From positions 132,060,001 to 132,124,000 of the forward strand of contig OZ336870.1 of assembly GCA_965287045.1 (NCBI GenBank): 64,000 nt of DNA, read 5' to 3'. The notes under the pieces are model-generated. The model did not search any database and was not told the origin of the DNA. It saw nothing but the letters and a program-made list of their open reading frames with translations. The stretch comes from Carcharhinus amblyrhynchos (taxonomy: Eukaryota). Positions 4,002 through 55,000 of the stretch are shown piece by piece; positions within the stretch are counted from its first letter, which is position 1, and each line of letters starts with the position of its first letter. Position numbers and translations under genes: made by a program.

Positions 4002-7000
4002 GTAAGGAAAATGTGACACTTTGGAAAGCATAAGTTGGATGTATGGAATATGTTGTTTTCCTCATTTGCACTAACCCTTTAGTGTGTTAGACAGAGACAG
4101 CAATGTGGTAACTGAGCATTGTAAGGGACCATACCTTCACAAAAGAACCATTTTTAAGAGAAACATCTACTGAATTGGACTCTATTGTCACAAATAATAA
4201 TTCAAAACAGAGTTCAATTTAGAACGATTTGTTTCTTGACATGTTTATGGAATCTACTGTGTGTTTATTTTACAAAGTAAAACATGAAGATGGGTGGCAT
4301 GATGGCACAGTGGTTAGCATTGCTGCCTAATAGTATCAGGGACCCAGGTTCGATTCCAGCCTTGGGTGACTGTGGAGTTTGCACGTTCTCCTCGTGATTG
4401 CATAGGTTTCCTTCAGGTGCTCAGGTTTCCTCCCACAGTTCAAAGATATGCAGGTCAGGTGGATTGACCGTGCTAAATTGCCTCTTGGTGCCCCAAGATG
4501 TATACGTTAAGGAATTTGGTAGGTTAAATGCATAGTGTTACGAGGGATAGGCAGGGGTACATCTGGGTAAGATGCACTGCCAGAGAATCAGTGCATTTTC
4601 GATTGGCAGAATGGCCTCCTGCTGTATGGAACACTACCATTGCTGAATTCCCCCGCCCCATCAACATCCTTATTAGAAACTGAACTGGACTAGCCATATA
4701 AATACTATGGCTCCCAGAGCAGTTCCAAGGTTAGGAATCTTGCAGCAAGTAACTAACTCACCTGTCCCTTCACTGGATCAAAATCCTGAAATTCCCTCCC
4801 TAACAGTACTGAGGGTGTATCTATAAGATATCAATCAAGTTGAATAGGTTGGAGGTGGGATGGGGGGGGGGGCTGTGTGCAGGAGGTCTAAAGTCTGTCC
4901 GTCATTGCTTCCTTTAGTTGCAAAAGCAGCAGTTGTGGAAAAGCTCAGTAGGTTTGGCAGCAGCTGTGGAGAGGGCAGATGAGATACTTTAGTTACTCCT
5001 CATTCCCCAGAACTGTAAGTTAGGACAGATTAGCTTTTAGAATCATAGAATCTCTAAAGTGCAGAAGAGGCCACTCAGCCCATCAAATCTGCACTGACTC
5101 TGAGACTATCTAGTGCACACCTGGTTCCCATGTTCTAGTCTTGTGTGTTAAGATATTCAGCATTTTGAACTGTATAGCAAACTGATCAGCATCTGAAACA
5201 AAAGGATGAATTACTCTGCTGGCATGATCCTCCACTCTCATAACTAACAAGGATTAGCAGAACTCGTGAACTTGTTACCAAGACTGATATCCCATCAGCT
5301 GCCTCTGCCACTGCTCTTCCTTCATCAATCCCACTTGGCCAGACTTCCTCCAGTATTCCTTCTACCCTAATCCTGAACTTTTTAAAAAAAATTATTTTCC
5401 AGTTTCATGCCTTTTCTGAGCTTATCTTGTCTAACACTCACCTCCTGTTCCCTCATCCTATTCTCAGTAAACAGCTGACCACCTAATTTCTCTTCCTAGT
5501 CCCTGTGTTAGCTAATACTGTTAATTGTGTTCTGTGCCCCCCTCTTCTAAACCTGCAGTCATCACCCCTCTCAAGAAAAAATCCTGACCTGTTTAGTCAT
5601 GCAAACTACCTCCCTTTCCTCTCCATATACAGTTTTGACAAAGGGTCATTTGGACCTGAAACATCAGCTCTTTTGTTCCTTACAGATGCAGCCAGACCTG
5701 CTGAGATCTTCCAGCATTTTCTCTTTTGGTCCCTTTCCCTTTCTCTCTGATGTCCTTGAATTTGTTGTCAGCTCTCTAAATCCATGCCATCTTTCCTAAG
5801 TCTCTATGCTTGAATGCCTCTGATCAGGTTTTCACAACAGTACTGAAACAGTTCATATCAAAGTCATAAGTGATATTCAACGAAAGTAAATAATCCTTTC
5901 TCATCTTTCTAAACCTGCCTGTTGCCTTTGACCGGGTTGATCCTGCTATCCTCTTTCAACATCTCTCCATCATCCTGCAGTGGGGTGGGACTGCACTTGC
6001 CTGGTTCCATTCTATCTAGTTGTAGCCATTGTGTCATCTGCAATGGCTTCTCTGCTCGCTCCTATACTCTTACCTCTGGTGTCCCCCAAATGCCATTCCT
6101 ACAATTCTCCATCTACACACTACACTGGGGCGATTATCACCAAAATTACAGCATCAGTTTCCACATGAACACTGACAATACTTAGACCTACCTCACTTTA
6201 CCTCTTCACTCTCTTTATATTTGTCAGGCTATTTGTCTCATTGTTTTGGATGAGCAGCAATTTCCTCCAATTAAACACTGAGAAGACTAAAATCACTGAT
6301 TTCAGTGCTACCTCCAAACTTCTATCCCTAGCTGCCAACTCTGTCCTTCTGCTTGACAAGTCTGAGGCTGAGCCAGACAGTCCACTAAAATTTTACGTTT
6401 GACCCCCAAGCTGAGCTCCCAATATAAGTCTATACCATTATAAAGATAGCCTATTTTCACCTCTGTAAAGTCGCTTTATTTCATCACTGCCTCAGCTTAT
6501 CTGGTACAAATTCCTTTTCATATTTTTGTTATCACTAAATGTTATTATTGTAACCTAATGCTGGTTGATGCTCTGCTTTCTATCCTCTGTAAACTTGAGC
6601 TCAACCAACTCTGCTGCTCGAGTCCTAACACACACTCTTCACACATGTACCGACTGATCTAGCTTGGCTTCCAGTTTAACCATGCCTCAGTGTTAAAACT
6701 TTACTCTTTGACTGTATTTTACACTGGGGGTGAGGTACCTGGCCCCAGAGGCCCTGCTTCAGAGCTACCAGCCAACCCAATGGCCAGTGGCTCCCTTTTC
6801 CCAGCACCACTGGGAGTTGTGGCCAATATGGGACTGCCGCAAGTCCGAGAGGGAAGGGAACTGTGATGAAGCGCAGATGAAGGCACGTCCGCGATCTCAC
6901 CAAGACCGGGCTGGCAGGCCCCTGGGTGGAAGGTAGGATCAGAGAGGGGTGAGGTGGCTTCTCTCAGGTGAGGGGACCTGGAAAGGAAACCCATCCCCCA

Positions 7001-13000: not shown

Positions 13001-16000
13001 TGTGCACCTGACACCTCAAAATTGTCATCTGAGTCTTTGGGCTTGGGAGGAGAAGATTGCCACGTTAGGGACTCATGTATGCTCACCTTCCTGTCTGTCC
13101 ATTTGATGGATCATCCATTTCCAGTACACACTCCCCATCCTCTTTCAACTTTCTGAAGAGGGAATTTCCTCTGATTTCCCCCAGACACATCTTTTGCTCC
13201 AATAATTTCTGAAATGATTATCTCCTTTCATCTTGCATAACCATATTCTTTGTCTTCAATCATTCCTTGACTTCCATCCAGTCACATACTATTCTCTCTT
13301 TTTCACTTCATACCCTTTTCCTACACTCTGTTTTTCCATAAACTGCCCAATCTGTAACATTTCCAGTATCTTCCTGGTACAGGATCATTGACTGAACTGT
13401 TAACCCTACCTTTACCTCTGTGCAGAAGCTGCCTGAATCAGGGTTTCCAGCATTTTTCTGTTTTAACTTTTAGAAGGCAATTCATCTTTGGGTTTGTACA
13501 ACTGATCTCTGTCTGGTGACCTCTGCTAAAAGTGCAAAATGATGAGGACAGAACCCAGCTTAGAGCAGTGCTGTCCAAGGTCAAATAGTTTACCGATACT
13601 ATGCCAACGATCATGCATTAATATTGGCCACTTGACCAAGATATTGGTGATGCCTGGAGCTCATTGACTGACTGCTTGCTAAGCTGCAGTTCAATTCTTT
13701 TTGTAAGAGAAGGAAGATAAATGAAGAAATGTCTTTCTCTGCTTTCATGAGAAACAACACCATCTTTTTGTCTAAAGATGTTGTTGCTTAGGTACTCATA
13801 TAGGGAACACAAATCACTTCAAGGCATGCTTCAAACAGTCAGGATGACTGTGCTAAAACTGAATATAGTTTCCTTAGTCAGGGCACATTTCAGTTGGCTG
13901 TTTGTAGTTTTCTAAAACATCCCTACCCTGTACTGAAGGAGCTGCACCCACATGCTTTTCATATTGGGAGGGTGGCAGTGAGCTGTTGGTGTATGTCTGT
14001 AAAATAGTTACCTAGAAATTGGAAGAAATTTTGATTCTCCTAACGTTCTGTGGGTAGCTATTGATGGAACCCAGAGGAAACCACCTGAAGTTTGTGATCT
14101 TAGCTGCACTTCTGAATGCTTCCCAGGGCAGGGCAATTGCTGTATCTCCCGCACCCACCCTCCTCCATAAGATATGCCCTCGTACTCAGATGTTACAGCC
14201 CTTGTGTCAAAGCAGCAGCAGTGGTGGAAAAAAAGTTACTTGAATACATTGGTTAGAAATTGTAAACTGTAAAACCCATTTTCATTGAACTAGAATATAT
14301 GGAATTGCATTGTGCGGCTGCCTGAATGATTCATTGAGTAGCTGAGCTATGCAGAGTCTGAAGGTCTGGGGTTTGATGCCCGACTTGTGTTACATTCATC
14401 GTTCTCAGCTGTTTGTGTGGTCAGCAGGTCAACCTGTCAGTTCCCAGCAGGTGACAGGATGAGTGCAAAATACACTCACTACTCTGACTGTAGGCTCAGG
14501 ATATTTCAATTCTGGGGCTTCTCTACTTGTCGCTGGTCAGCTCCATGTCTGAAATGTGAGGAGAGCACAGCCAGCCAATGGGCAGAAGCAGAAGTTCAGG
14601 CAGTCAGGGACTGCTGACTGTTGTGTGGAAGGAGCCTCAGAAGTATCCCAAAGGCAAGGACATGGCAGGAGAGATTGGGCCATCTCTTGTGAGACTTTGA
14701 GAAGCATTCTGCTTGGCCAAAGCCCACACTTGAAGGAATTAGTATAACTGGGTTCTCCCAAAATATGCTGAGCTACTTTAGTCTGGTGGGAAAGTCACAA
14801 TGGCTTACCCACTCAGATGAGTTTAAATCTGATTGGGATTCTGCGTTAGTATACATTTGAGTTCCATATGGTTCTAGCCAGTGACTCAGCCATTGAACTG
14901 CAATGAGAAGTGTAATCTGTGGGGTTCCCAGGGGTATGGGATGTTGGGGTTTGATACTCCATTTTGAGGCCACCCTGTCTCACTTCACCAGATGGATTAA
15001 ATCTCCCCCCACCACTCCTAAAATATATTTTAAATGTTGCTTCTTATCATCTGCTTGGTTTCTACTGCAAGACCATAGAACCCCTACAGTGCAGGAGGAG
15101 GCCATTTGGCCCATTGAGTCAACTCTAAAAGAGCACTCTACCTGCCCACCCTCCCTGCTGAATCCCTGTAACTCCATGTATTAATAATGGCCAATTCACC
15201 TAATCTGCACATCTTTGCACAGTGGGAGGAAACCCATGCAGACACAGAGAGAACATGCAAACTCCACACAAACCGTCACCCAAGGCCAGAATCGACCATG
15301 GGTCTCTGGTGCAGTGAGGCAGCAGTGCTTGCCACTGTGCTGCCCTTTTGCACATTGAGTTGCCACCACCCTAGAGAGTGGCACATGTCATAAGAACATA
15401 AGAAATAGGTGTAGGCCATCTAGCTCCTCAAGCCTGCCCTGCCATTCAGTAAGATCATGGCTGATCTGATAGTGGTTCAGTTCCACTTACCCGCCTGCTC
15501 CCCATAACCCTTAATTCCCTTATTGATCAGAAATCTATCTACCTGTGACTTAAACACATTGCCCATTGAAGCAGTGGAGGCTACCTCGTTAAATGTGCAG
15601 AGAGTTCCAAAGATTCACTACCCTCTGAGAGAAGTTCCTCCTCAACTCTGTTCTAAATTGACTCCCCCTTATTTTGAGGCTGTGCCCTCTAGTTCTTGCT
15701 CCTTTCTAAGTGGAAATAATCTCTCTGCCTCTACCCTGTCTAGCCCCTTCATTATCTTATAAGATCCCCCCCCCCCCGCTTAGCCTTCGAAACTCCAACG
15801 AGTACAGGCCCAATCTACTCAATCTCTCCTCATAAGCTAACCCCCTCATCTCTGGAATCAACCTGGTGAACCTAATCCAGCCCTGCTTTGCACCTTGAGC
15901 AACCCAGGCCTTTAAGCTAGTCCTTATCCCAAAGTTACAGGTCTGACTTGCCAATTTCCTTTACCTACATTGTTCTAATGTGCCACAACATGCCAGAGGC

Positions 16001-19000
16001 TGTTCACCTTGGAGACCTGCTCCAAATATGGGTACGGTCCAGTGTGAGATTTACAACATCTTCCCCCAAATATTAAAAGGCTAATGAGAGCTCCCCAAAT
16101 GCTGCTGGAATCACAACACTTCCCTGTTTACCCTTTCCCACAGTTCTCTAATCTGGGAAGGTGGATTAACACTATATGCTATTGTTTGCCATGAACACCT
16201 GTGCTGGTATCTTTAGTTTCATTGTTAGTTTAATGATAAGATAGTAGGTGCCAATCTCAACTAGCTTTTCCCCCTCAAAAATTGAAAGATCCCAATTATC
16301 AGCATGAAGGCAAGATTTGGTGACTGAGCTAAGATGCAGTTTGAGGATTTAAGATTCTGGGCAAATGCAACAGGTTCTGTGTGAAATGAGCTCGCCAAAC
16401 TCCAAGGATGCAATAGCAAAAAGACTTTAGCAAGGAAGCTTCTAATGTGATGAAGAAAGGACAGGGAAAGTAAGGTGTAAAATGGACATTCTTGGGGGAA
16501 TTTGATCTGCAACAGTGGGGTTAAACAGATAGCAAATGGATAGCCCATTAAAAACTAAAGTAAGGTTTGGTGTAAAAGGGTGGGCAATTTGCTGTTACTC
16601 TTTGTGCTATCGCTGATGACCCAGTATTTTAAGTCACTTGCAGGAGTGCATTAACACACCTAGTCTACTTTAATAAGTCACTGGAACACCTGAATGAGCC
16701 ATTTTCTGATAATTGAAAAAAAAACAAACACAAAATATTTTGTAACGGAGTTGTATTTTAGTGGTTATGCTGGATTTCTGTGATACTACTTTCTTTGGAA
16801 TCCAGGCATCATATCTAAAATCTTGCCGGGTGAAGAGCCACACTCAGATAACTGCCCATTACAGCATGCTCAAATTCTTGTTTTACATCATTAACAAAAG
16901 AAGCAAAATCAAATGTAAAAACTTTTCTCAGACAAAAATTGACACCATACCAAAGGAGATGATCCTAAAGGTGAGTCAAAGCCAGGTTTTTTTTTGCTAT
17001 GCCTCAATCTTGACTTTCATATAGTAGCATCAACATGTAATGCCGCAATTTAAAGGAATACAAAACAATTGTCATGCTTTGATTTCCACAATGCACAAGT
17101 GTGTAAGAAAGTGTAGAGCTGAGCCCATGAGTAAAGGAATCAACTTGCTGGGTTCTTCAACATCATCAGACACTTCTGTAGTGACATAGGTGAACTGTCA
17201 ATTTTAGCCACCGTAAGACTAAAGGAAAAAAAAAGCTTCGACTTTCAACTTCTCTTTAATCCCTGACAATTGGTTTTTCTTTGTAGAAGTTTGTGTGCAG
17301 GTGCTACTTTGGGTTAGATTCAGACAGATTCAGTCCATGAGCTGACTGTAAAAACACCCAAAAGACTTGCATTTATATAGTGCCTTTCATGATCTCTAGA
17401 TATCTCAATGTATTTCACTTATTCACTGTATTAATGTAGAAACATGGCAGCTAATTTGTGCACACCAGATTTCCACAAACAATAATGTGATAATGATCAG
17501 AAAATCTGTTTTTGTGATGCTGATTTGAGGGATAAATATTGGCCCCCAACACCAGGGTAATTCCCTACTCTTCCAAATAGTGTCATGGAACCTTTCACCT
17601 GAGCAGACAAATGGTCCTTCTTTTAACAACATCTCTGATGGTACAAGAACTTTTAGCAGTGCATTTTTGATTGCCTTGATTTTTACATAGGGTAGGGTAC
17701 CTCAATTAAATAAATATTTTTGGAGTCCTGCCCACCACCTGGCCAAATTGACTAGCTATTGTGTGAGAATGGGAACTTGACACCAAGGGGCCACAAGCAG
17801 GGAGCCTTGGGAACAGTCTGCGGCAGTTTGTGGTTGGAGAGGTTTTCCTCACAGCAGGGAAAGGGATAGACTGAGGTTTCCTTTGACCAACTTTTGGGGG
17901 AATGATGGGACTGGTGATTTTCCCCAAAGTTTATGGGGATTCCAGGATTGGGAATTATCTGAGGGCATGGTGTTTGGGGATGAGAGTCCCACTGACCCAT
18001 CTTGCCTCATATGGAGTTCATGGACAGGCAATGTTAAAATTAACCTGAGTTGCTTCTTAGCAGCGGACCTTCCCATCCCGTTGTTGATGCTGGGCTTGCT
18101 ATGAACCTTAAAATGACGTAGTGCTCTCGATTACATCTAGAGTTTCAACTTCTGAATCTTAAATAGGTTTTTAGTAGGAATCTTGTCAATAGCCTTTGAC
18201 AGAGTGGACACTTGAAGATATAGCTGCTTGGAGACACAATTTAGGATTTTTAACCCTTCCTGCCTGTCAATTTCGAGATTCTTATTCTTATACAACAAAA
18301 TCCTGCTCCTTTTATCCTGACAGTAGGGTCATGCACTCTGGTTTTAGTGGGACAGCGATTCTGCTCCCTTAATAGTTAAGGTAGATTTGGAGTTATGAAT
18401 ACAAGCGACAGAATTGTATGTTTTCCCCATTGGTGACTGTTGGGGGCAATAGGAAGAGGGAAGGGCTCTCTCTCAGATGGCTTTCCCAACTCTCTGCAGT
18501 TTTACGGTGGGATGGTTCATTGAGGAACTTCAAAGGCCAGTTAATGATTACTAAGAAATTTCCCACCCCATCTCAATTTTCAGGCTGGCAGAAGAAGTTC
18601 AGGAGTTGCGGGGGTGGGTGGGTGTAGTAGTCTCACCTCTGCCCATCTTGGAACCCCCACATTTACCTGGTTTTGCAGTCCCAGTCCTGTCCCCTGTAGA
18701 TTGTGGTACTGCAGGGACCAAAAAGCTGCCAATCAGTTTGGCCCAAGCACTCTGAGGCTGGACTTCATCTGGACTAAGGGGCAAAAATCCCGTCTCCAGC
18801 CAGTTAATCTCCTTGGACCATTAAATACACAGTGATGTGTTGATTTTAGGATGGTGGGGTTTCTCCTCCCCCGAACCAAAGAGTAAGGAACTTTTAAAAA
18901 AATTTACACTCTATTCTCGCGTAAGCACAAAGGCCTGAAAAGTTAACTCTTATTTCTGTGTTACTGATGCTGCCTGGCCTGCTGAGTATTTCTAGAATTT

Positions 19001-22000
19001 TTGTTTTCATTATACATTTCCAATACCAATATTTTGCTTTTTGTTGTAGCTTGCTGCCATCTTGTCTTTGTTATTTTTCATATTTCCACATTTGTAACAG
19101 GGTGACCTATCACAGAAGATGAAGGGACAGCCTGCCGGGGGATCCGTAAAATTGATGGGAGTGTGTCGGAGCTGTGAGATTGGGAGGGATGGGTGCTGCC
19201 CCAGCTATGAGAGTGGGAGGGGAGGGGGGGGCTTGCTGCTAGTGGAGCTGAACACCGGAGTTGGGGGGAAGGGTACTAAATTTATGCTCTCATAAACGAA
19301 TTTTTCCATTCTAATCTTTTTACAAAGTGGCTGTGTGGTGAAGTGCACCAGGAGTTTTAATTTTCATTCCACAGGACGATGCAGCGTTCACTGTCAGGGA
19401 GTGGCCCTCCAAACTTCACCTGGAAAGACCAGTTTGTCTTGCATTGTCGCAAAGTACAAGTTTTGGATGGAGGTAGACCATGCAAATACTGGTGTGGGGT
19501 GTGTCCCAGTTCACACAAATGCTGGGAAAGGAATGTGTTCTGACAATGTACAGATTTATGCAGTAGGAATCTGTGGTGAAACTAATAAAGGTTCCTGAAG
19601 GTGGAAAGACTGCTGCACTTTGTTGCCACTCCCTGAGATTAAGTTGTGAAACTCCTCTTCAGGACCAGGTTTATGACCGTAATGTTAAATCTAATGGCAA
19701 AATTGCACTTGTCTCTGTCCTGGCTGGCATGTTTCTGATCAATGGAGTGAGGATGGCCTGAGTAAAATGCTCTTTCTGAAAGTTGGCGCAGACTCGATGG
19801 GTCAAATGGCCTTCTGCACTGTAGGGCGTTTATGGTTCTTTGGTTCTGTGTTGTTGTGGATATCCCAAGTTGCTTGGATTTGTTATAGTTCAATTGCCCA
19901 TGGACAATCAGTGATAATCAAGCGTCTATGCATTTCCAGCTGAAAATCAGACTCCATATGTAGACACCTGGCTCCACAGCTAACTGTAACTTCCAGTACT
20001 GTCGCTCCTGCTCTGAAGCAAGGGACTTTGCTGCAAGCTGGATGGAAATAACTTGAGATAGGCCTTGCAAGATCAGGAATTTCCAACCACAGCGTGCAAC
20101 AGGGTTTCTGAAGCAGCGGTAAAATCAAGTAAAAATAACAGAAGCTTGATGCAAATTTTTGCTGCAGTCTTCTGTGTTTTCAAGAACTGGTGGTTTTGAA
20201 AATACCTAAAGCTTAAGTTCTGGCCGGCCTGTACCTCATTGCAATTTCACCTAAGTGCATGTCAGATATCTATGTTTTTTCTTTTAGTCTGGAGAGCTAT
20301 TGTTCAATATCTGTAAATTTTCTAGGTTATCTTGTACATCATTTGAAATCTGCCTGTGGCATCTAGTTTTGTCCCTGTGAAACTAGGTTTCAATAAATTG
20401 AGGTAAAACTACTATACTAAAGCACTGTAAATGCTTTTGTTTAGAAGTCTGAAGCCGTACAAGCTTCAACTCACTGAACTTTTACTCCTCAGCAAGGAAC
20501 TTGACTAATAACTTGGAAGATGACTCCTTGTGGCTTCAAGTTATGAAAAGTTTATTATCAATAATATTTATACATGTACAAGCAATAGCTAAATGTAACC
20601 GGAAGCTAACCTGGACTAAATCACATGTGAAGGAATAATTTCTTAATTGCTCGCCAGTGGGCTTGGAAATCTAGATGAAGGGCCAATGTCTAGAGTGTGG
20701 AACATAACCAAGATTGAAAAAAATGAAAACCAGATGAGGTGAATTAGGAATTCATGATGATCATGACACTAAGCTTATGTTTTTAAAAGCTTGAAAAAAT
20801 TGAGAGGCAGGCAAGACTGAAGGAAGTAAGAAATTCCAGTACTTTGAGAGTTAATTAGAACAGGAGATGTGGGATGAATCCAATAGGCAGGATATAGGGA
20901 GGAGCGAGAGCATTGTCAGAGGATGTGTGCTTGGAGCTTGGCAAGGATGAGAAACACAAGTTCAGTGGGACATGAGAATTTAAGTCTACTCTGCTGCAAC
21001 AAGGAGGTCTGTAAATTTTGCAACAGTGCGGCCAACATTAACAGTTGAGATATTTGTGCAGATCGCAGATGGAGACTAAAGGTCAGGCTCAGAGGGAAGA
21101 GGTCAAACTAAGAAGGAGAATGAGGAAGAGAGCAAGCGACCAGCTGCACAGCTGGCAAACTAAGACCGAGGTCAGCTGACTAGTTGGAATATTATAGAAA
21201 GCAACAAGTAGATAAAACTGAATGATGAGATGAAGATAATTCAGCTGATACTTGGGTGAGGTGTATTTTGAAATGTGTTGAAAGTGTGCTTTGTTCTGCA
21301 GCAACACCAGGTTTATTTTACAACTGTGAAAATTGTGCAGAAAGAGGGATGTACAGTTGACTTGGTGCCATGTGTATGGTCTGAATACCTTCTTAAACAG
21401 CTAACATCATAAACCATAGGAATAAATGCTGTAACCTAAACATTAAATTCCTGTCATGAACAGTTCTTTCTTTTAGTGTTCTATATGATATATAAATAAT
21501 AGTAAATTGTGTGTGCACACTGTGTGTGTGAGAGAGAAAAAGTTCCAAACCCTTCTTTGCGTGAATGCCTCATTGCCTGCCATAGTTATGTTCCAAGAAG
21601 GGCTTTCTCCTCCTCTGATGCTATTGCCTCAGGATTAAAACTTGTGTTTAATAAGTCACAGCAGACTGTAGGGAAATCCCACAGAGTTGTCACCGAGAGA
21701 ACGCTGCCTTCATGATTTGGTATCCCAGACCGCGGCTTTCCCTCGTCCTGAGTTGCTGGAAACATTTGTAGCCTTCCGCAGTTGTTTCATGAGCGTCATT
21801 CTGTTCCAGATTCAGAATTAACTGTGTGCCAAGAGAAATGAGTATACTGATGGAAAACTGAGTTATATAAATTGGTTATGCAAACGGGATTTGTTTTTTG
21901 GCAGGAAGGCTGAACACGTTTAGGAGGCAATTAGAAAATCTATATGTAATGGTGACATAGTAAATTGGAATCGGGACAGCAATAATACAGCTCTGGATAA

Positions 22001-28000: not shown

Positions 28001-31000
28001 CAACAGCCAGTGGCCAGACAAGCTGCCCCAAGGCGTTCAACAACTACCATATCGACACAGACTGAATTCAACCAGGACATTGAGAATTTTGAGACGAGGA
28101 GTGCTGATGCTGATTTTGCAAGTTTGAGAGGGAACACTCCTGTGACAGGTAGAAAAGCACGATGTTCTTCATAGCCTATATAATTCAAGGGCAGAATAAG
28201 ACTAATGCTTGCTCTGAATAAAATCAGTATCTATAATTAGTGGCATGGTAATAACAAATTTGCAACAATAAGTAGCAAATTAGGTGTAACACTTGTCATT
28301 ATGGGTAGGAACGTAAGATCCCTTTTGAGGACCATGGAGTTTTGATTACAGTCAAGGTTTTGAGCAGTTGGGTCATTCTGAATGTAGCTGATTTGGATCA
28401 GAGGTCTGCGTAGATGTCAGTTTTCCTACATGTATTAGTTTGTGTATCCAATTTTCTACTGTTCAACTTGCTAGAGTCACATGTTATTCTCTGGCAAGAC
28501 TTGTAAGTTGACAAACTGATTGCTCGCCATGATATAGAGGGGAGGGTTGTCCTTACAAGAATTGAATATTATATCAGTTTAAAGAAAAAATACTGTGGAT
28601 GCAAGATTCTGAAACAAAAACAAAAAATGCTGGAGAAACTCAGCACGTCTGACAGCATCCGTGGAGAGAGAGAGACAGAATAGAACCAGTGATTCAAGCC
28701 TGGATGACCCTTTTGTCAGAGCTCGACTTTGATACTTGGTTTTACACAAAAATGTATTTTATTGTGTTTTTATCTCAAAATTTTCCTTTTGACTTCTTTA
28801 GCTGTAGCTAATGATGGGATGGGTGCAACCAGCAGTTTCCCATTAACTTATTTCAGGAATGTCAATGTTGGACAGTGGAACAGAAAACAACTATAGTCAA
28901 TCATATTTTCATTGGACATGTACATGCATTTATTGCAAGGGCTACAAGGAATGTGAACCAATTCTCATTCCCAGCCAAAAACACAGAGGTCAAGTGCAGC
29001 ACAATCTTCTAGTTTTTCTTCTTGTTGCTGGAGCAGGTGAGAAAGAAGGGCTGTGAACGTGCTCTTTACACAGCTTTTCTTGCAATATTGTACAGCACTT
29101 AAGAAGAAATAAATCCTGGAGTGCCCCACTCCATCATATTGGTGGGCAGGGCCTGAAAGAGCTGGCAACATTGATGTTCCAGAGATATTCCAAAGATGTC
29201 CTTTTGGGGTGTCCCTATAATAACTCGAATAAGTTTAATAATTCAATTGAATGCGAGGTTACAGACATGTCTTCACTCATATAAAAGCAAATTACTGTGG
29301 ATGCTGGAATCTGAAACAAAAAGAGAAAATGCTGGAAAATCTCAACAGGTCTGGCAGCATCTATAAGGAGAGAAAAGAGCTGATCTTTCAAATCCAGATA
29401 ACCCTTTGTCAAAGCAGATGACAAACTTTGACAAAGGGTTGTCTGGACTCAAACCATCAGCTCTTTTCTCTCCTTACAGATGGTGGCAAATCTGCTGAGA
29501 TTTTCCAGCATTTTACCTTTTGAGCCCTTCATCCATGATGCTGTACTTCAGACTATCCTTTTTTAAAAGAAATTAGTTTTAGTGAAGAGGTAGTACTCAA
29601 AGAAAAAGAATTAGATTGAAGTTTGATCAATCCCCTGGACAAGATGAGCTGCATCCCAGAGCGTTGAAGGAGATGGCTAAAGAGATGGTGAATGTATTAG
29701 TGATTATCCTTCAAGATTCTATAGATTCTGGGAAGATTCCTGCAGTCCATCGCTGAATCCCCTACTATCAACATCCTGGCAGTTACTATTGACCAGCAAC
29801 TGAACAGGACTAGCCATATAAATACTGTGGCTACTAGAGCAAGTCAGAGGTTAGGAATCTGACAGTGTGTAATTTACTCCTGACTCTGCAAAGTCTGTCC
29901 ACAATCTACAAGGCACAAGTCAGAAATGTGATGGAATATTTTCCACATGCCTGGATGAGTGCAGTGTACACCAACCAGGACAAAGCAGCCCACTTGATGG
30001 GCACCCCATCCACAAACATTCAATCCCTCCACTGCTAACACACAGTGGCAGCAGTGTGTGTCATCCACAAGATGCACTGCAGGAACTCACCAAGGCTCCT
30101 GAGAAAGCACCTTCCAAACCCATGACCATTACCATCTGGAAGGAGAAGACACATTGGAACACTGCCATCTCAAATTCCCAAGCCATCCATCATCCTGACT
30201 TGGAAATATATTGCTGTTCCTTCAGTGTCACTGGGTCAAAATCCTGGAACTCGCTCCCCAACAGCACTGTGGGTGTACAGGTTGTGCAGCAGTTTAAGAA
30301 AGCAATTCACCACCACCTTCGAGGACAATTAGGGATGGGCAATAAATGCCAGGGTGACACATCCCACAAATAAAACAAAATATTGGAAAGTAGGAAATAT
30401 AACCCCATTATTTAAGAAGGGAGGGAGAGAGACAGTGGAAAACTACGGATATGTTAGTCTGACATCAGTAACAGGGGAAATGTTAGAAGGATTATGAAAG
30501 ATGTGATAACTAGACAATTGGAAAATAATACAATATGGCAGAGTCCACATGGATTTATGAAAGGGAGATCATGTATTTGTCACTTGTAGCATAGATAAAT
30601 GAGAACCAGTCAATTTGGATTTTCAGAAGGCTTTAGATACGATTCCACACAGGAAGGTAGGAGTACTTGGGATTCGGAGTAATATATTGATGCAGATGAG
30701 CAGAATGGCCTACTTTCTCCTGTTTTTCATGATTTTCGTGTTCTAATGAGTCATTACTGATGGAGATATTGTTAGGTGAATAATAGGGACGTAGTGAATT
30801 GATATGTTCATGGGGCTAGTGGTAGCTTTGATAGGCAAGGGCATTTGAAGAAGTGTTTGCAGTTATTAAACTTCTGCATCCAGTTCCTTTGGAGCTAAAT
30901 TCCTAGTACTGAACTCTGCCACTATCTGTTGTCTTTGCCTTCTGGGCATGTGTCTAGAGGATGTTTGGATTCTTCTTTATTAAAAAAAAAAGTAGGATAT

Positions 31001-43000: not shown

Positions 43001-46000
43001 ATTTCTCCTCTATCAATCAAGAATTTGCACCAGTTGTCAATTTGCCATAGAAGATCATCTTTGAATTAGTTCTTCAGATACTTTCAACCTCACTATTGTA
43101 GCTGTGCCTTCATGATCAGAACAATGCTTAGCATGTCAGCTTTTTAAAAACTTTAGGTTCATAGGACAGGTTTGAAGTTGCGGAGAATACTATTTGATCA
43201 GGTGAGAAAAGGCATCTGTGAAACCAGCGAGTTTCACGCTATTTTCCATGCCTGTTCCAGCAATGTACTATTTTGGGGAAATTCCATATTCCTTATTGAC
43301 ATCTTGTTAACTGTAATCTCCACAAGTTTCTGACATAAGGCAGCGTTGTCAGAACGACAGCACTATATACTTTGAGCTTGATCTGCAGACTCACGCCTGT
43401 GTTGTTCCAGAGGCACTCTTGAAGTTTATCAAAAACTGAGCTGATTTTGGTGAATCTGCAGGATGCTTCTGTATCAATATGGATTTCGTTAAATTGGGTA
43501 CAGCCTAGGAAAGTGAATCTGACCATATTCTCAGACATGTGATCACAGTTGTGCAATCCTTGCCTGCGGCTGTTTGGAATAGTGCCACTGTCTTTTTAAG
43601 ACTGATATCATGCAAAATTTCGGCCAAGCACTGCAAAGTGGTTAATGATTGTTTGCATTTCTGAGAATGGGTCAAGAGTTCAGTGAAAGGTGAGTTCTTC
43701 CAATGTATTAGTTTTAGCTTGTTATTTTCTGAGGTTAAAGAGCTGCTCATCTGTGCTGAATCTAACCTTAACTCCGATTTTGTGAGATTGAAAGCTGTAA
43801 GAAACATGGCAGCAAATGAAATGTTGAAGAATTATTATGAGTGTGTACCTTTGCTTTATATCATTTATAACAGCATTAATTAGCGATTAGGATCATCTCC
43901 CACAAGTCTAAGCCATTATGGAGTTGTTAAAGCATCTCAATGAATTTGTGTGGACAACCAAATCAGATGTGGGTTTCCCAGAGACCTTTTCCACTGACAG
44001 TGTCAATTGCTTTTGTTAGGTCAAATTGATCTTTGTTAGATCAACTAAGGTCTTCATTTTGCTCTCTGCACATTTCTTGGAGCCATCTGGGTGATTAATT
44101 CACTCAGTGTTGGAGGATCAAAGATACCATGTGTGTATCTTCGACTCAATATTCTTGCCCCCAGCTTGACCTTGCTGTCTGATTGCTCCCTTGACTGAAC
44201 CAGTTACTTAAACTTGGAAGTTCACATAGTATCCATTACAAAGACTGCTCATTTCCAACTCCACAGAAATCCCCTCCTTCCTGTTTCTCAGCAATACCCG
44301 CCACCCACTGCCTGTCCACTGCCACTGAAGCCCTTATTCACATTTCATGTTTAACATCTTCACTTTTCACAGGCTTTCCCAAGCTTCATCTTGGAAAAAC
44401 TCTGTATACAAACTCTATGCCCAACAACCTGAACTACAGTCTGTTACTTTATCAGATTGTGATTGGTTTCTTATCCCCTGATGCAAGGAATTCCAAATCT
44501 TTGTCCTTGTTCAGGGATATTTCTGTGGTCACATCTGCCTTGAACTGCAACATCCAACGGCCCTTTGATTGCCCCTTCCTTCTAGTTGGGTGTTGAAAGA
44601 AGTGACGTTTTAATTTCCACCCCATCCCGTCATCACCCTCACCGTTAAAGATTGCACAGATGTCTCTTTAACAAACGCAATGTGGATTTCATTTAGCTGT
44701 ATGTTGTTCAGAATATTGGCAGGCTGAGGGTCCTTTGTATGCAGTCAGACAAAGCCGTTACACAAACATATAAATGTTGCTGGAGAAAAAAATGAACAAC
44801 CCAGCAGGAAGAGAATGGAAACACAGCTCTCGTTGCTGGGAAACAGCTGTGGATGATGACATTGATGTAAAATTCAGCTTACAAAATGAATTTGTGCTTT
44901 TTCTGACCTTGCCTTCCCTCTGTTGCTGAGAGTGCCAAATTTATAGCTACTATTCGTCAACAATCTGACAAGATCATGTAATGCAGACCAGTTAATGAGC
45001 ATCACAGTTCAAGCCATTCCTGGATCATACACAGAGCCACCTATTTTGTTTAGTAAATTTGTTTGGCAGCGAAAGCTTCAAAAATGATTTTAAAAAATCA
45101 GAATATTACCAATGCTTGGAAATTTGAAGCAAGATGTATCCAGAGCAGAGGAGTTAACATTTTGGATGCATATCCTTCTTAACAATATTTTGCAAGAGTC
45201 AGCACAGGAAACATTAACTTGTCTGTTGTATTCACAGATGCTGACTAGTGTGTTTCCAGTATTTTATATTTATTACTGCTTAGAACAAAAGTCTTTGTGA
45301 AATTCTGCAAAGACAACAGGAAGATCCTCCAAAGTCACATGATAGATGTAGTGTAAAAGGGATTTTTTTCCCACCGGCACAGTACTTTAACTTTTTACCA
45401 TTTGCTGGTGGAAAATTATAGTTAGTAATGCAGATGCTTTTCTTTCTTAAGTGTCACAAGTAGGCTTACATTAACACTACAATAAAGGTATTGTGAAAAT
45501 CCCCTAGTTGCTGCACTGCAGTGCCTGTTTGGATACACTGTTTGGAAAACTTAGCATGGCCAGTGTACCGAACCAGCATATCTTTCGGATTGTGGGAAGA
45601 AACCAGAGCACCTGGCAGAAACCCACACAGACACGGAGAGAACGTGCAGACTCCACATAGACAGTGATCCAATCCGGAAATTGAACCCGGGTCCCTGGCA
45701 TTCTGAGACAGCAGTGCTAACCATTGTGCTGCTCCTAAAGTCTGTTGTTTTGGTTTGCAGGACATCATTAACTCAATGACTGGCTGTCCCAAAATGTATC
45801 TATACTGGTAAAAATTTTGAAACATCATTTACCCTCCAAAATTTGAAGTTGAAATATTATAAAATTTGTTCAGTGAATTGGGATTTTCAGTGGGCGATAG
45901 AAGTGGCCTTAGTTCAGCAACACTCAGTTTGACTGTTGCTTTTCAAGTGGTCTCCCTATTTTCTTTGGAAGTAGTTGCGTGTGGAAGCTCCATGGAGGGA

Positions 46001-52000: not shown

Positions 52001-55000
52001 CTGAGGCTGCGTTCTTCGGTTTTTTGCAGCCAGTGTTTCCTGAGAGGCAGACAACCTGAGAGCTGAAGGGAGCTAGGAAATGCCTGATCCAATAGGCTCA
52101 GCCCCGTGGCGCCCCCACCCCCTCCCCACCCGCCATCCTGTCGCCGGCTCCCCTGCCATCCTGTCGCCACTGCCCCCCATTCCCCTCCCCGACTTCATCA
52201 TGATCTCCCTCCACCCTATGAACTGCATCTTCTCATGGTCCTCCTTTACAATTTCCTGTCAAACACCATTCCTTTCTTTTCCCACACCATCTTTTTTCTT
52301 GACCCCTCACCCCTACCATCTTCAGGGTGCTGGTACAATCATACTGCGGCAAGAAATAAATGCTTTAGGAGAGGTGAGTAATCTGGTTCCACCAGTCTCA
52401 GCTATATTTGTTGTGCAAATGGAAGATGAAATTTTTCCCCTTCAAGTCCACCAGTCCATCTGTTCCTCTGTATCAGTGGATATGAGACTTCCAATCTTCT
52501 TGATGAAATAAATTAGATCCATTTATTTGTATGCAAATTTTAAACTAGAGGCTATCTTCAAATGTGTGATTTTTTTTACTGTACTGTACATGAACATTGA
52601 TAAACTATTATCGAGCAATAGAATTTAAATAAAGGGACTGGAGAGTTGCTTAACAGACTGTGCAGTTTGCAGGATTTTGCTTGATTTTCCTACATCACTT
52701 TTTGAGGAATTGACATTTTGATTTGCTAACTTGGTTTGTTTTTTTTTCTGTTGATATTGGGGTCTGTTTTTGATTTTAAATTGTTCCCCACAAACAGACT
52801 TAAGATTGAGCTCTTGATCTCAGTAGTGCAAACTTTTTTTAAAAATTGTTAATACCAGCTATGATTAGTGGCCATTGTTCACAAGACTGTTTATAGCATT
52901 TTCTATTGGTATTTTTAATAGAAAATGTCAGTTAATTTAAGAGAAGTCTTTGAGCAACACCTCAGTGAAATGTAAAACATAATTCTGATGAATGTTCAAG
53001 TTTGTGTAGAACTTTAACAAAAGCTACAATTGATTTGACTTCATTCAACCTGTAGGCATTCTGTTCAAACCATGTGACTGGAGCTTTTTTATATTCCAGG
53101 ACAGTTCCAGGCAAAGTGCCTCCTGCACGGCCTCCCCCAGCTAAAGCTGGTCCAGCTCGTCCTCCTCCTCCAAAGGTTTCTACTGCACCAAACCATCTCC
53201 GCCGTTCTTCATCTGAACTGGGAATAAACAACACTGCAGGAAAAAGCAGCCCACGTGCCCTCAGCAAGATTCGTCCAAAAAGTCAGGTTTTTCAGAAAAA
53301 ACGCCCTGAACTTCCACCGCGACCAGCTCCTGGTCATCCACTCTACAACAAGTACACGGTAATCAACAGGCAGAGACATTGGTCAGTTTTGAGAATGTCA
53401 GCGTGTTTCCTCTATGTAATTTCTCACAAAGGTTCAGATGCAATTCCAAGATACAGATACAATCTCAGAAGGGAATATTGGAAAATTACTTGATCAAGTG
53501 GATAATTACAGGCCAGCTTCATCTTGCCCAGTGTCCATCTAAATCCACTGGATAATGATGAACAACAGGGATCTTAGCTTTTTTACCCCTCCTCACTATG
53601 TTGAGGCCAAGTGTAGAACACCTACCATTTGCAGCTGACATCAATCCACCCATCATAGACCATGAATAGAATCTGAAATACTGAGGGCTGATTTAAAGCT
53701 AATTACAATTGTAATTGAGTTCTATATGTTTTAGATTTTAGGTGTTGGTTCTTTTCTTTATAAAAAAGACTTTGAAATGTCCACTCCGGAATAGTTTAAG
53801 TTTAAAAATGGTAAATTAGAAAGAGTTCCATTTTTCTCAAAGACCCAAAAATACTTGCCTTCTTGTACTGTTAAAATTGTGTTTTTTAATTGACTTTCCT
53901 GTTCATCCCCATTTTTTTCTGTGCCATTCTTTGACTTAATGAGCAATAGGTTGTGCCTGGACTTCTCTGCAAATGACAGAGACCAGACATCATAGTGTGC
54001 AGTGCTTCAAATCCTCTTTTAAAAAAATCAAGCTGGTCTTTCCTATCCCTCCTGAGGTTATGCTGTTGAAATGCAGTATTGTGTAAACAGTTAACATTGC
54101 CTGATTTACACCATCACCCAGTTAAAATTGCCCCAGATACTTTAATTCTTGTCATGTCCTAAAATTAATTTCAGAATCATTTGCTATATGTTACAGAATG
54201 TAAGAGTGAGTGTCAGATAGAAAATGCAGAACAACCAAAAAACACTGAATCTAATTGCAAATTTATAATATAAAAAATAGTCATTTGGGAGTTTAGAACT
54301 TGAGTATTGTTGAAAAGAGACATTTTGTCGCAACTTGCAGTCTTGCACTGGACAATCACAAGAATACAACGTCAGTTCTTGTTTTTCCTGACATTGATAT
54401 TCTTGTGATTGTTCTGAAGAGTGCAAGATGAAAAGCTTTGACAAAAGGTCTTTTCTCAGTTATATTTTTTAAAAAAAGCTAGAAATATACTTTCAGCAGC
54501 TGAAACGTGATCCAAGTTTAGTTGTTCATATTGATAAAATTGCATTTTCAGATGTTCACTTCTTATCTGAATTGAATTGGAAATTGGTTTTCACCTTCTG
54601 ATTTGATGGGATTGTGCTTTTAAAATTGACATCCTGCTTTTTCAGTGTGAGCTTATTCAAACAGGAATTTGCAAAGTGTTCATGAATCCTCTTCTGTATG
54701 TAAAAAAAAATCACGTTTCCCTGGACGATGCATTTTTAATAATGAAGGTAGCAACCCCAAGCCAGCTGAAGATAGAAATGCATCTTTGATCATAAAATCC
54801 AATTAAGGAGGGTTGGAGGACACGATTTCATGTTTGATACGTGTAGCAAAATTAGAATCACATTCTGCAAACTTAAATTTATAATTTTACTGCAATAACA
54901 TTGTACTTGAGTGCATTAAGCTGTATGTTCATGATCTGGCAATAAAAAAGGTATGCAACTTGCTGTCATGTGTGAAGAAAAAACCTCATCTTTGTGATGA

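What the first reader, a model, noticed from the sequence alone, without database searches (positions are those of the whole stretch)
5631..5669. Minimal hammerhead ribozyme in a Penelope-like terminus with a compensatory U3-A8 core
Seen: AGTT-TTGACAA-A-GGGTC-ATTTG-GACCT-GAAA-CATC-AGCT. This folds as a type I minimal hammerhead: stem I AGTT/AGCT, stem II GGGTC/GACCT, GAAA, and an NUH triplet AUC (predicted cut after 5665). The core reads UUGACAA instead of CUGANGA. The same TTGACAA is in both arms of the 29.4-kb copy, so it looks like a subfamily trait; the 28.7-kb copy reads CTGACAA. Known: Penelope-like elements carry minimal hammerheads, and positions 3 and 8 form a tertiary Watson-Crick pair for which U3-A8 is a tolerated substitute. 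Inference: a CpG-driven G8A was rescued by C3U, implying selection for self-cleavage in an active shark subfamily. Stem III is only A-CA-U (likely an ancestral palindromic ACGU needing a dimer), so this copy, in sense in the SH3D19 pre-mRNA, is probably a weak or dead relic.
Basis: partly seen in the sequence, partly recalled or inferred. Interest (0 to 1): 0.72.

Follow-up and report, generated by a model that had tools for sequence, protein, structure and literature searches.

The report
Shark Penelope hammerhead, swapped core pair
This is a worn 100-base stub of a shark jumping gene whose whole subfamily carries a small, likely self-cutting RNA motif with one core base pair swapped (U-A for C-G), a swap already published for such elements, so it is a new example of a known thing.

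Summary
The motif is there as described. It is the first 39 bases of a 100-base stub (5631-5730) of a Neptune-like Penelope element, in sense in an SH3D19 intron. U3-A8 is the founding state of its subfamily (A): 62 of 64 unbiased copies, none with G8; C3 in only 30 of 1,671. A sister subfamily (B) was founded as C3-G8. The 28.7-kb 'CTGACAA' copy belongs to B and is plain CpG decay, not an intermediate. All six A/B differences inside the motif keep the fold (0.4-1.7% by chance), which favours past selection. 'Active' is not supported: copies are about 6% diverged and none of 150 scored had an intact ORF. The order G8A-then-C3U cannot be read. This copy is likely dead. U3-A8 is published for Schistosoma PLEs (PMC4209133) and other hammerheads (PMC3088659). 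Extra: copies start at the motif's first base, 30 nt below a TATA box (likely the transcription start), and almost never at the cut site. The scan found both the swap and this start pattern before on other DNA.

The parts
5631..5730 (+). Subfamily-A pLTR stub of a Neptune-like Penelope element; starts at the motif's first base, ends at the first of two common 3' end points
   Evidence: 8 mismatches in 96 aligned bases and one gap against the A consensus, 20 against B; end clusters
5631..5634 (+). Stem I 5' strand (AGTT; AGCT in the subfamily); 5631 is the inferred transcription start position of the source RNA
5635..5641 (+). Core U3-U4-G5-A6-C7-A8-A9; U3 (5635) and A8 (5640) are subfamily founder states
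5642..5657 (+). Unpaired A between 9 and 10.1, then stem II (5 bp) with 5-nt loop; C11.1 has decayed to U in this copy (5657)
   Evidence: the unpaired base is a stated trait of PLE min-HHRs (PMC4209133)
5658..5665 (+). GAAA, minimal stem III (A-CA-U; A-CG-U palindrome in the subfamily) and triplet AUC (GUC in the subfamily); predicted cut after 5665
   Evidence: six-base duplex energy -3.1 kcal/mol for the subfamily palindrome, 0 for this copy
5666..5669 (+). Stem I 3' strand AGCT
29286..29415 (-). Subfamily-A arm (U3-A8) of an inverted two-armed insertion, with the long tail
29426..29521 (+). Second subfamily-A arm (U3-A8) of the same insertion
28589..28723 (-). Subfamily-B copy (founder C3-G8); its A8 is post-insertion CpG decay
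   Evidence: 14 mismatches to B, 22 to A; B statistics

Best explanation
This is a decayed 100-base stub of a Neptune-like Penelope retrotransposon whose subfamily was founded with a U3-A8 hammerhead core; the ribozyme likely cut in the source element and is likely dead in this copy. Shown: U3-A8 is the founder state of subfamily A, the same terminus is linked to RT plus GIY-YIG coding sequence, and a C3-G8 sister subfamily exists. Inferred: the swap was kept because selection on the source lineage preserved a weak, dimer- or protein-assisted self-cleaving fold (cut after GUC, +35). Inferred for how the stub arose: a TATA box in the upstream repeat starts transcription at the motif's first base; reverse transcription begins internally near +100 or +135 and runs off the 5' end of uncut RNA, pasting a short stub. 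Cut RNA is hardly ever the template, so cleavage would act before or apart from insertion (processing read-through RNA or removing the capped leader).
For: Founder state: of 100 listed copies with both other CpGs intact, 95 A8, 1 G8 (547 copies); 27 of 30 T3; C3 in 30 of 1,671, all with A8; copies picked by downstream sequence only: 62 of 64 T3-A8, 2 G3-A8, no G8 (64 of 90 reach the core). Sister B: positions 7-8 CG 27, TG 40, CA 30, TA 3 of 100 listed (by eye), the symmetric decay of a CpG; T3 independent of A8 (Fisher p=1). Six A/B differences in 39 nt all fit the fold: 0.4-1.7% of random placements, 0.03-0.3% with a 3-8 swap. Element: RT (Pfam RVT_1 E=2e-4, below its cut-off), CxxxCxxC-type linker and degenerate GIY-YIG upstream of A termini. 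Start: 23 of 90 A and 24 of 70 B copies begin exactly at the first base; TATA 30 nt upstream in 21 A copies and 30-31 nt in 5 B copies with different spacers; a full-length copy begins there too; loose ends peak there in 4 of 4 public runs laid. This copy has five changes in the motif, incl. C11.1 and the stem III palindrome, and in 100-nt context stem I pair probability is 0.01.
Against: No cleavage assay and no raw RNA reads. The selection test rests on one A/B comparison and on a descriptor I wrote after seeing the sequences; the same bases may be constrained as initiator, splice or protein-binding signals. Copies give no footprint of cutting: 2 of 90 A and 3 of 70 B starts fall within 2 nt of the cut, against 2.5 and 3.75 expected. 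In the anole element, ribozyme mutants still insert in vitro and no reads ended at the cut (PMC11167929). The first two bases (AG after a pyrimidine tract) also look like a splice acceptor.
Confidence: 0.72

Rival explanations
1. The fold is kept as a structure or signal at the RNA's 5' end (RNP recognition, initiator, cap protection) and cleavage is negligible; U3-A8 preserves the tertiary fold, not catalysis.
For: Genome-wide, 465 copies start at the first base against 21 at the cut, and 15 of those 21 are fold-back joints through the shared AGCT (the two patterns pass about 34% and 28% of random flanks). Ribozyme mutants do not block insertion in vitro (PMC11167929); min-HHR activity in vitro is low (PMC4209133).
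Against: The kept positions are the catalytic ones, and H17 changes only between allowed bases (U in B, C in A). The anole motif cuts when its protein is present and the 3-8 double mutant partly rescues.
Confidence: 0.18
2. The double change is neutral: G8A by CpG decay and C3U by an unrelated transition or by correction of the short inverted repeat CTTT-GAC-AAAG, carried along by one successful source element after the ribozyme stopped mattering.
For: Both changes perfect that short inverted repeat (sequence, direct). A and B also differ at 8 of 96 positions outside the motif, and no intermediate subfamily exists for those either, so missing intermediates prove nothing.
Against: A single template switch from CTCT-GAC-GAAG gives neither arm of the A form (sequence logic). 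The two other CpGs of the motif stayed intact in the A founder though they decay in 64-70% of copies. Random placement rarely keeps the fold. The same swap arose independently in Schistosoma PLEs and other hammerheads.
Confidence: 0.08
3. The subfamily is still active and this or a close copy cuts the SH3D19 pre-mRNA.
For: Copy is intronic and in sense; only 150 of 6,393 RT candidates were scored, so an intact master is not excluded; 7 of 64 A copies still fit the descriptor.
Against: Divergence 0.063-0.069 (K2P) even in pattern-picked copies; the same terminus is held by runs of several differently coded organisms; no frame near the roughly 900 codons needed; this copy fails the descriptor and has no tandem partner.
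Confidence: 0.02

Closest known systems
U3-A8 minimal hammerheads of Cercyon PLEs, Schistosoma mansoni (Cervera and De la Pena 2014, PMC4209133; read parts 1-2 of 4, searched 2 of 3 supplements)
   Same: Type I minimal motif in a pLTR, unpaired base between 9 and 10.1, G10.1-C11.1, palindromic 15.2-16.2, U3-A8 in place of C3-G8, mostly solo copies (about 1,300 hits there).
   Different: Vertebrate host and Neptune-like element; 5-bp stem II; here U3-A8 is tied to one dated subfamily with a C3-G8 sister in the same genome. No shark is named in the parts and supplements I saw.
Natural U3-A8 hammerhead variants (Perreault et al. 2011, PMC3088659; passages)
   Same: C3-G8 covaries to U3-A8 in nature; such ribozymes are stated to be active in vitro.
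   Different: Not tied there, in the passages seen, to a PLE subfamily; those motifs have full stems.
Poseidon element PAc of Anolis (Frangieh et al. 2024, PMC11167929; read parts 1-2 of 4)
   Same: pLTR hammerhead; two internal reverse-transcription start sites that define the tail; uncut RNA is the main template.
   Different: There the ORF starts at stem II; here the ATG lies 171 nt after the motif's first base and the motif sits at the inferred RNA 5' end. Different clade.
EN+ PLE insertions with inverted pLTR, tail and putative TATA/Inr (Arkhipova et al. 2013, PMC3846280; Craig et al. 2021, PMC8557442; passages)
   Same: Inverted arms, palindromic joints, 30-40-bp tail, TATA-like box in the pLTR, zinc-finger-like linker of Neptune/Nematis.
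   Different: The passages seen do not place the start at the first base of the hammerhead; Drosophila Penelope uses a TATA-less internal promoter (PMC2377424, passages).

Membership tests
PLE minimal type I hammerhead | Core CUGANGA...GAAA...UH or a Watson-Crick 3-8 variant | tested here: met
   U3-A8 core, GAAA and AUC in this copy; GUC in the subfamily
PLE minimal type I hammerhead | Stems I and II can form | tested here: met
   Subfamily motif: stem II pair probability 0.99-1.0, stem I 0.43-0.89 (39 nt); this copy in 100-nt context: stem I 0.01, stem II 0.19-0.26
PLE minimal type I hammerhead | Unpaired base at 9/10.1 and G10.1-C11.1 | tested here: met
   Met in the subfamily; C11.1 decayed to U in this copy
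PLE minimal type I hammerhead | Palindromic minimal stem III for dimer formation | tested here: met
   ACGU in A and B founders; lost (ACAU) in this copy
PLE minimal type I hammerhead | Located in the pLTR of an RT + GIY-YIG element | tested here: met
   Long copies join the same terminus to RT/EN coding remains
PLE minimal type I hammerhead | Self-cleavage at the NUH site | not testable with these tools
   No assay; genomic ends show no excess at the cut
Rfam hammerhead families | Covariance-model hit | tested here: not met
   No hit at E<=10, also for the C3-G8 control copy; not filed under an Rfam family
Neptune (or Nematis) clade of EN+ PLEs | CX2-5CxxC linker before a C-terminal GIY-YIG domain | tested here: met
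   CNCRTCNTC in L463 and CNRRRCNTC in L251, ahead of a degenerate GIY-YIG motif read by eye; definition from PMC8557442
Neptune (or Nematis) clade of EN+ PLEs | RT phylogeny groups with Neptune | not tested
   No reference set; 'Neptune-like' rests on the linker and on Neptune being widespread in vertebrates
Non-LTR retrozyme | Non-coding head-to-tail tandem repeats with one hammerhead per unit | tested here: not met
   Single stub here; family linked to an ORF
Currently active subfamily | Near-identical copies and an intact ORF | tested here: not met
   6% divergence; longest frame 557 aa among 150 of 6,393 candidates; not exhaustive

The most novel reading that the evidence does not exclude
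An autonomous vertebrate Penelope-like lineage fixed a compensatory U3-A8 catalytic pair in a hammerhead that forms the very first 39 bases of its capped RNA, yet the cut product is almost never copied; the ribozyme would then be a self-decapping or transcript-partitioning switch under selection, and the A/B sister pair is a natural experiment on what PLE hammerheads are for.
Probability: 0.25. Interest if true: 0.6.

Novelty: new member of a known kind. Interest (0 to 1): 0.27.

Why it matters
The role of hammerheads in Penelope-like elements is stated to be unclear (PMC8557442), and ribozyme mutants still insert in vitro (PMC11167929). A compensatory core swap fixed in an element lineage that then made on the order of 10^4 copies (estimate from 3,191 exact 35-mers at 6% divergence) is indirect evidence that the fold was under selection in vivo. 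The U3-A8 and C3-G8 sister subfamilies give a ready pair for bench comparison. The swap itself is already in print and this copy is likely inert, so the locus is ordinary.

Tried and rejected
Rfam: no hammerhead hit, also on a C3-G8 control. C3-A8 intermediate lineage: rejected; C3 is 30 of 1,671 A copies, like T-to-C at the neighbouring T's (1, 2 and 2 of 100 listed). U3-G8 or B-type U3-A8 lineage: rejected; 13 of 40 B-type T3 rows have A8, the B background (by eye). Cut-site footprint: none in 90 A and 70 B copies; genome-wide 21 A hits, 15 fold-back joints, 3 small deletions, 3 others all preceded by CAA; 8 B hits whose context I did not see, so an A-versus-B difference is open; the control offset gave 40 hits, mostly small indels in the 30 viewed. 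Splice-acceptor origin of the 5' end: disfavoured, since 31 of 44 boundary copies keep the AG (chance about 7%) and share no upstream exon. Intact ORF: none among 150 scored; identical-score hits on one contig are a 99.5%-identical segmental repeat with a broken frame. Expression: no RNA holder listed on record and only contigs served, so no test of RNA ends. Pfam missed short broken ORF pieces. No clean target-site duplication seen at 5631-5730 by eye. Lunse et al. (RNA Biol, PMC5785218) on PLE hammerhead dimers and Przybilski and Hammann on 3-8 exchanges were not held; I saw them only as reference entries, and either may already cover shark or U3-A8 cases. PMC7151607 (one passage) added nothing. 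Searches for prior print on shark U3-A8 or a TATA start at the motif; only PMC4209133 (U3-A8) and PMC3846280 (pLTR TATA/Inr) came close.

Full report
OBSERVATION. A descriptor for minimal hammerheads (C3-G8 or U3-A8 core) finds only this site in the 64 kb and nothing in 100 shuffles. Rfam finds no hammerhead here, nor in a near-consensus relative or a C3-G8 relative. The host exon at 53,104-53,355 is 99% identical to SH3D19 of a named houndshark record. Related proteins map exons at 27,714-63,102 on + and a first coding exon about 53 kb before the window, so the motif is intronic and in sense.

WHAT IT IS. The motif opens a 100-base repeat copy, 5631-5730. Longer copies elsewhere continue upstream into broken coding sequence with RT motifs, a CxxxCxxC-type linker and a degenerate GIY-YIG domain (Pfam RVT_1 E=2e-4, under its cut-off). 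That layout is described for Neptune and Nematis PLEs (PMC8557442, passages); no RT tree was made. One full-length copy runs from the motif's first base through an ATG 171 nt later and a broken ORF of roughly 900 codons. So the terminus belongs to an autonomous element.

TWO SUBFAMILIES. Subfamily A (this copy, both 29.4-kb arms) and subfamily B (the 28.7-kb copy) differ at 14 of 135 positions, 6 of them in the motif. In A, among 547 copies with the other two CpGs intact, the 100 listed show 95 A8, 3 C, 1 T, 1 G, and 27 of 30 viewed have T3. With CpG decay allowed there are 1,671 copies; 30 have C3, all with A8. Of 90 copies picked only by a downstream 35-mer, 64 reach the core: 62 T3-A8, 2 G3-A8, none G8. 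In B, positions 7-8 read CG 27, TG 40, CA 30, TA 3 in 100 listed of 891 (counted by eye). In 35 of 70 unbiased B copies that reach the core they read CG 8, TG 10, CA 11, like the other two CpGs. B was therefore founded as C3-G8, and CTGACAA copies such as 28.7 kb are decay after insertion. T3 and A8 are independent in B (Fisher p=1; 13 of 40 by eye). No amplified C3-A8 or U3-G8 lineage appears, so the order of the two changes cannot be read. Older, more distant copies in random stretches read C3-G8 (three seen), and A is the younger (K2P 0.063-0.069 against 0.092-0.096, non-CpG), so U3-A8 is likely the derived state.

SELECTION. The six differences in the motif are C3/U3, G8/A8, two loop II bases, H17 (U or C) and the first stem I pair (U-G or U-A). 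All keep the fold. Random placement of six changes does so in 0.4-1.7% of 150,000 trials per setting, and with a 3-8 swap in 0.03-0.3%. The two CpGs that cannot be compensated stayed intact in the A founder, though only 23 and 19 of 64 copies retain them. Limits: one comparison, a descriptor written after the fact, and possible other constraints on these bases. The motif is not within the main ORF.

NOT ACTIVE, AND THIS COPY LIKELY DEAD. An RT query gave 6,393 candidates; among the 150 scored the longest open frame was 557 aa. The terminus is held by runs of several differently coded organisms. This copy has five changes in the motif against the A consensus, including C11.1 to U and loss of the ACGU palindrome; the six-base duplex energy goes from -3.1 to 0 kcal/mol and stem I is not predicted in 100-nt context. 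7 of 64 A copies still fit the descriptor.

WHERE COPIES START AND END. 23 of 90 A copies start exactly at the motif's first base and 41 within 3 nt; 19 run more than 50 nt upstream; background is 0.5 per position. B gives 24 of 70 at the first base (that count includes at least one long copy). Long copies have a TATA box 30 nt upstream (21 A copies; 5 B copies at 30-31 with different spacers). Loose ends peak at the same base in 4 of 4 public runs (443, 363, 30 and 19 contigs; 156 further rows not shown). The AG is kept in 31 of 44 boundary copies, which disfavours a splice junction. I infer a transcription start. 3' ends fall in two groups, near +100 and at or past +131, like the two internal reverse-transcription starts of the anole element (PMC11167929). 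Starts at the predicted cut are at background: 2 of 90 and 3 of 70. Genome-wide there are 465 first-base starts against 21 at the cut, 15 of which are inverted arms fused through the shared AGCT. Those 15 fit cDNA folding back on the DNA image of stem I, but joining of a cDNA from cut RNA is not excluded. The 8 B hits could not be viewed. An earlier AI note on another shark reports a few percent of starts at the cut; I did not find that in subfamily A.

KNOWN. U3-A8 in PLE minimal hammerheads is reported for Schistosoma Cercyon elements, about 1,300 hits (PMC4209133), and natural U3-A8 covariation with in vitro activity in PMC3088659. Low activity, dimer need and protein help are in PMC4209133, PMC6765202 (passages) and PMC11167929. 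A putative TATA/Inr in a pLTR is in PMC3846280. Earlier AI notes of this scan reached both the U3-A8 and the TATA-start readings on other genomes; I had tested both before seeing them (note), and they are not independent support.

VERDICT. Real motif, real founder-state swap, likely selected in the past, known in kind; copy likely inert; subfamily old. New member of a known kind, interest 0.27.

Noticed in passing
L501-L521 (e.g. L504, L507, L508, L514): 15 of 21 junctions at the predicted cut are an antisense arm ending at the motif's first base fused through one shared AGCT to the sense arm from +35; fits cDNA self-priming on the DNA image of stem I.
   Followed up: partly
G000-wide, one search list: About half of the 100 listed first-base starts are preceded by CAA, as expected for two arms joined head to head through one AGCT; contexts not viewed.
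   Followed up: no
L494 (G000:C7), L033, L226, L259: The main ATG follows a pyrimidine tract plus AG 171 nt after the start; a short upstream ATG frame begins at +56; a GT at +32 lies inside stem III. An intron from there would remove the cut site and the upstream ATG (idea only).
   Followed up: no
L158/L258/L267 (G000:C1:124265580): One long copy has U3-A8 and A-type flanks but a B-type loop and 3' stem; a recombinant, conversion or early A form.
   Followed up: partly
G000:C32, about 0.6-3.9 Mb (L495, L496): Many identical-score RT hits; two fetched 8-kb stretches are 99.5% identical, a recent segmental or tandem array holding a broken PLE piece.
   Followed up: partly
window 4910-4975 (-), 18935-19041 (+), 13394-13465 (+), 45198-45271 (+): Older, more decayed termini of related Penelope-like families.
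   Followed up: no
window 54342-54427: An 86-base near-perfect hairpin (weak Rfam microRNA match, E=0.097) next to a short AGCTTTGACAAA fragment at 54434-54450.
   Followed up: no
L250, L257, L255, L256: Young-looking CR1-type LINE pieces (96% identity between two loci over 1.27 kb) sit next to several long PLE copies.
   Followed up: no
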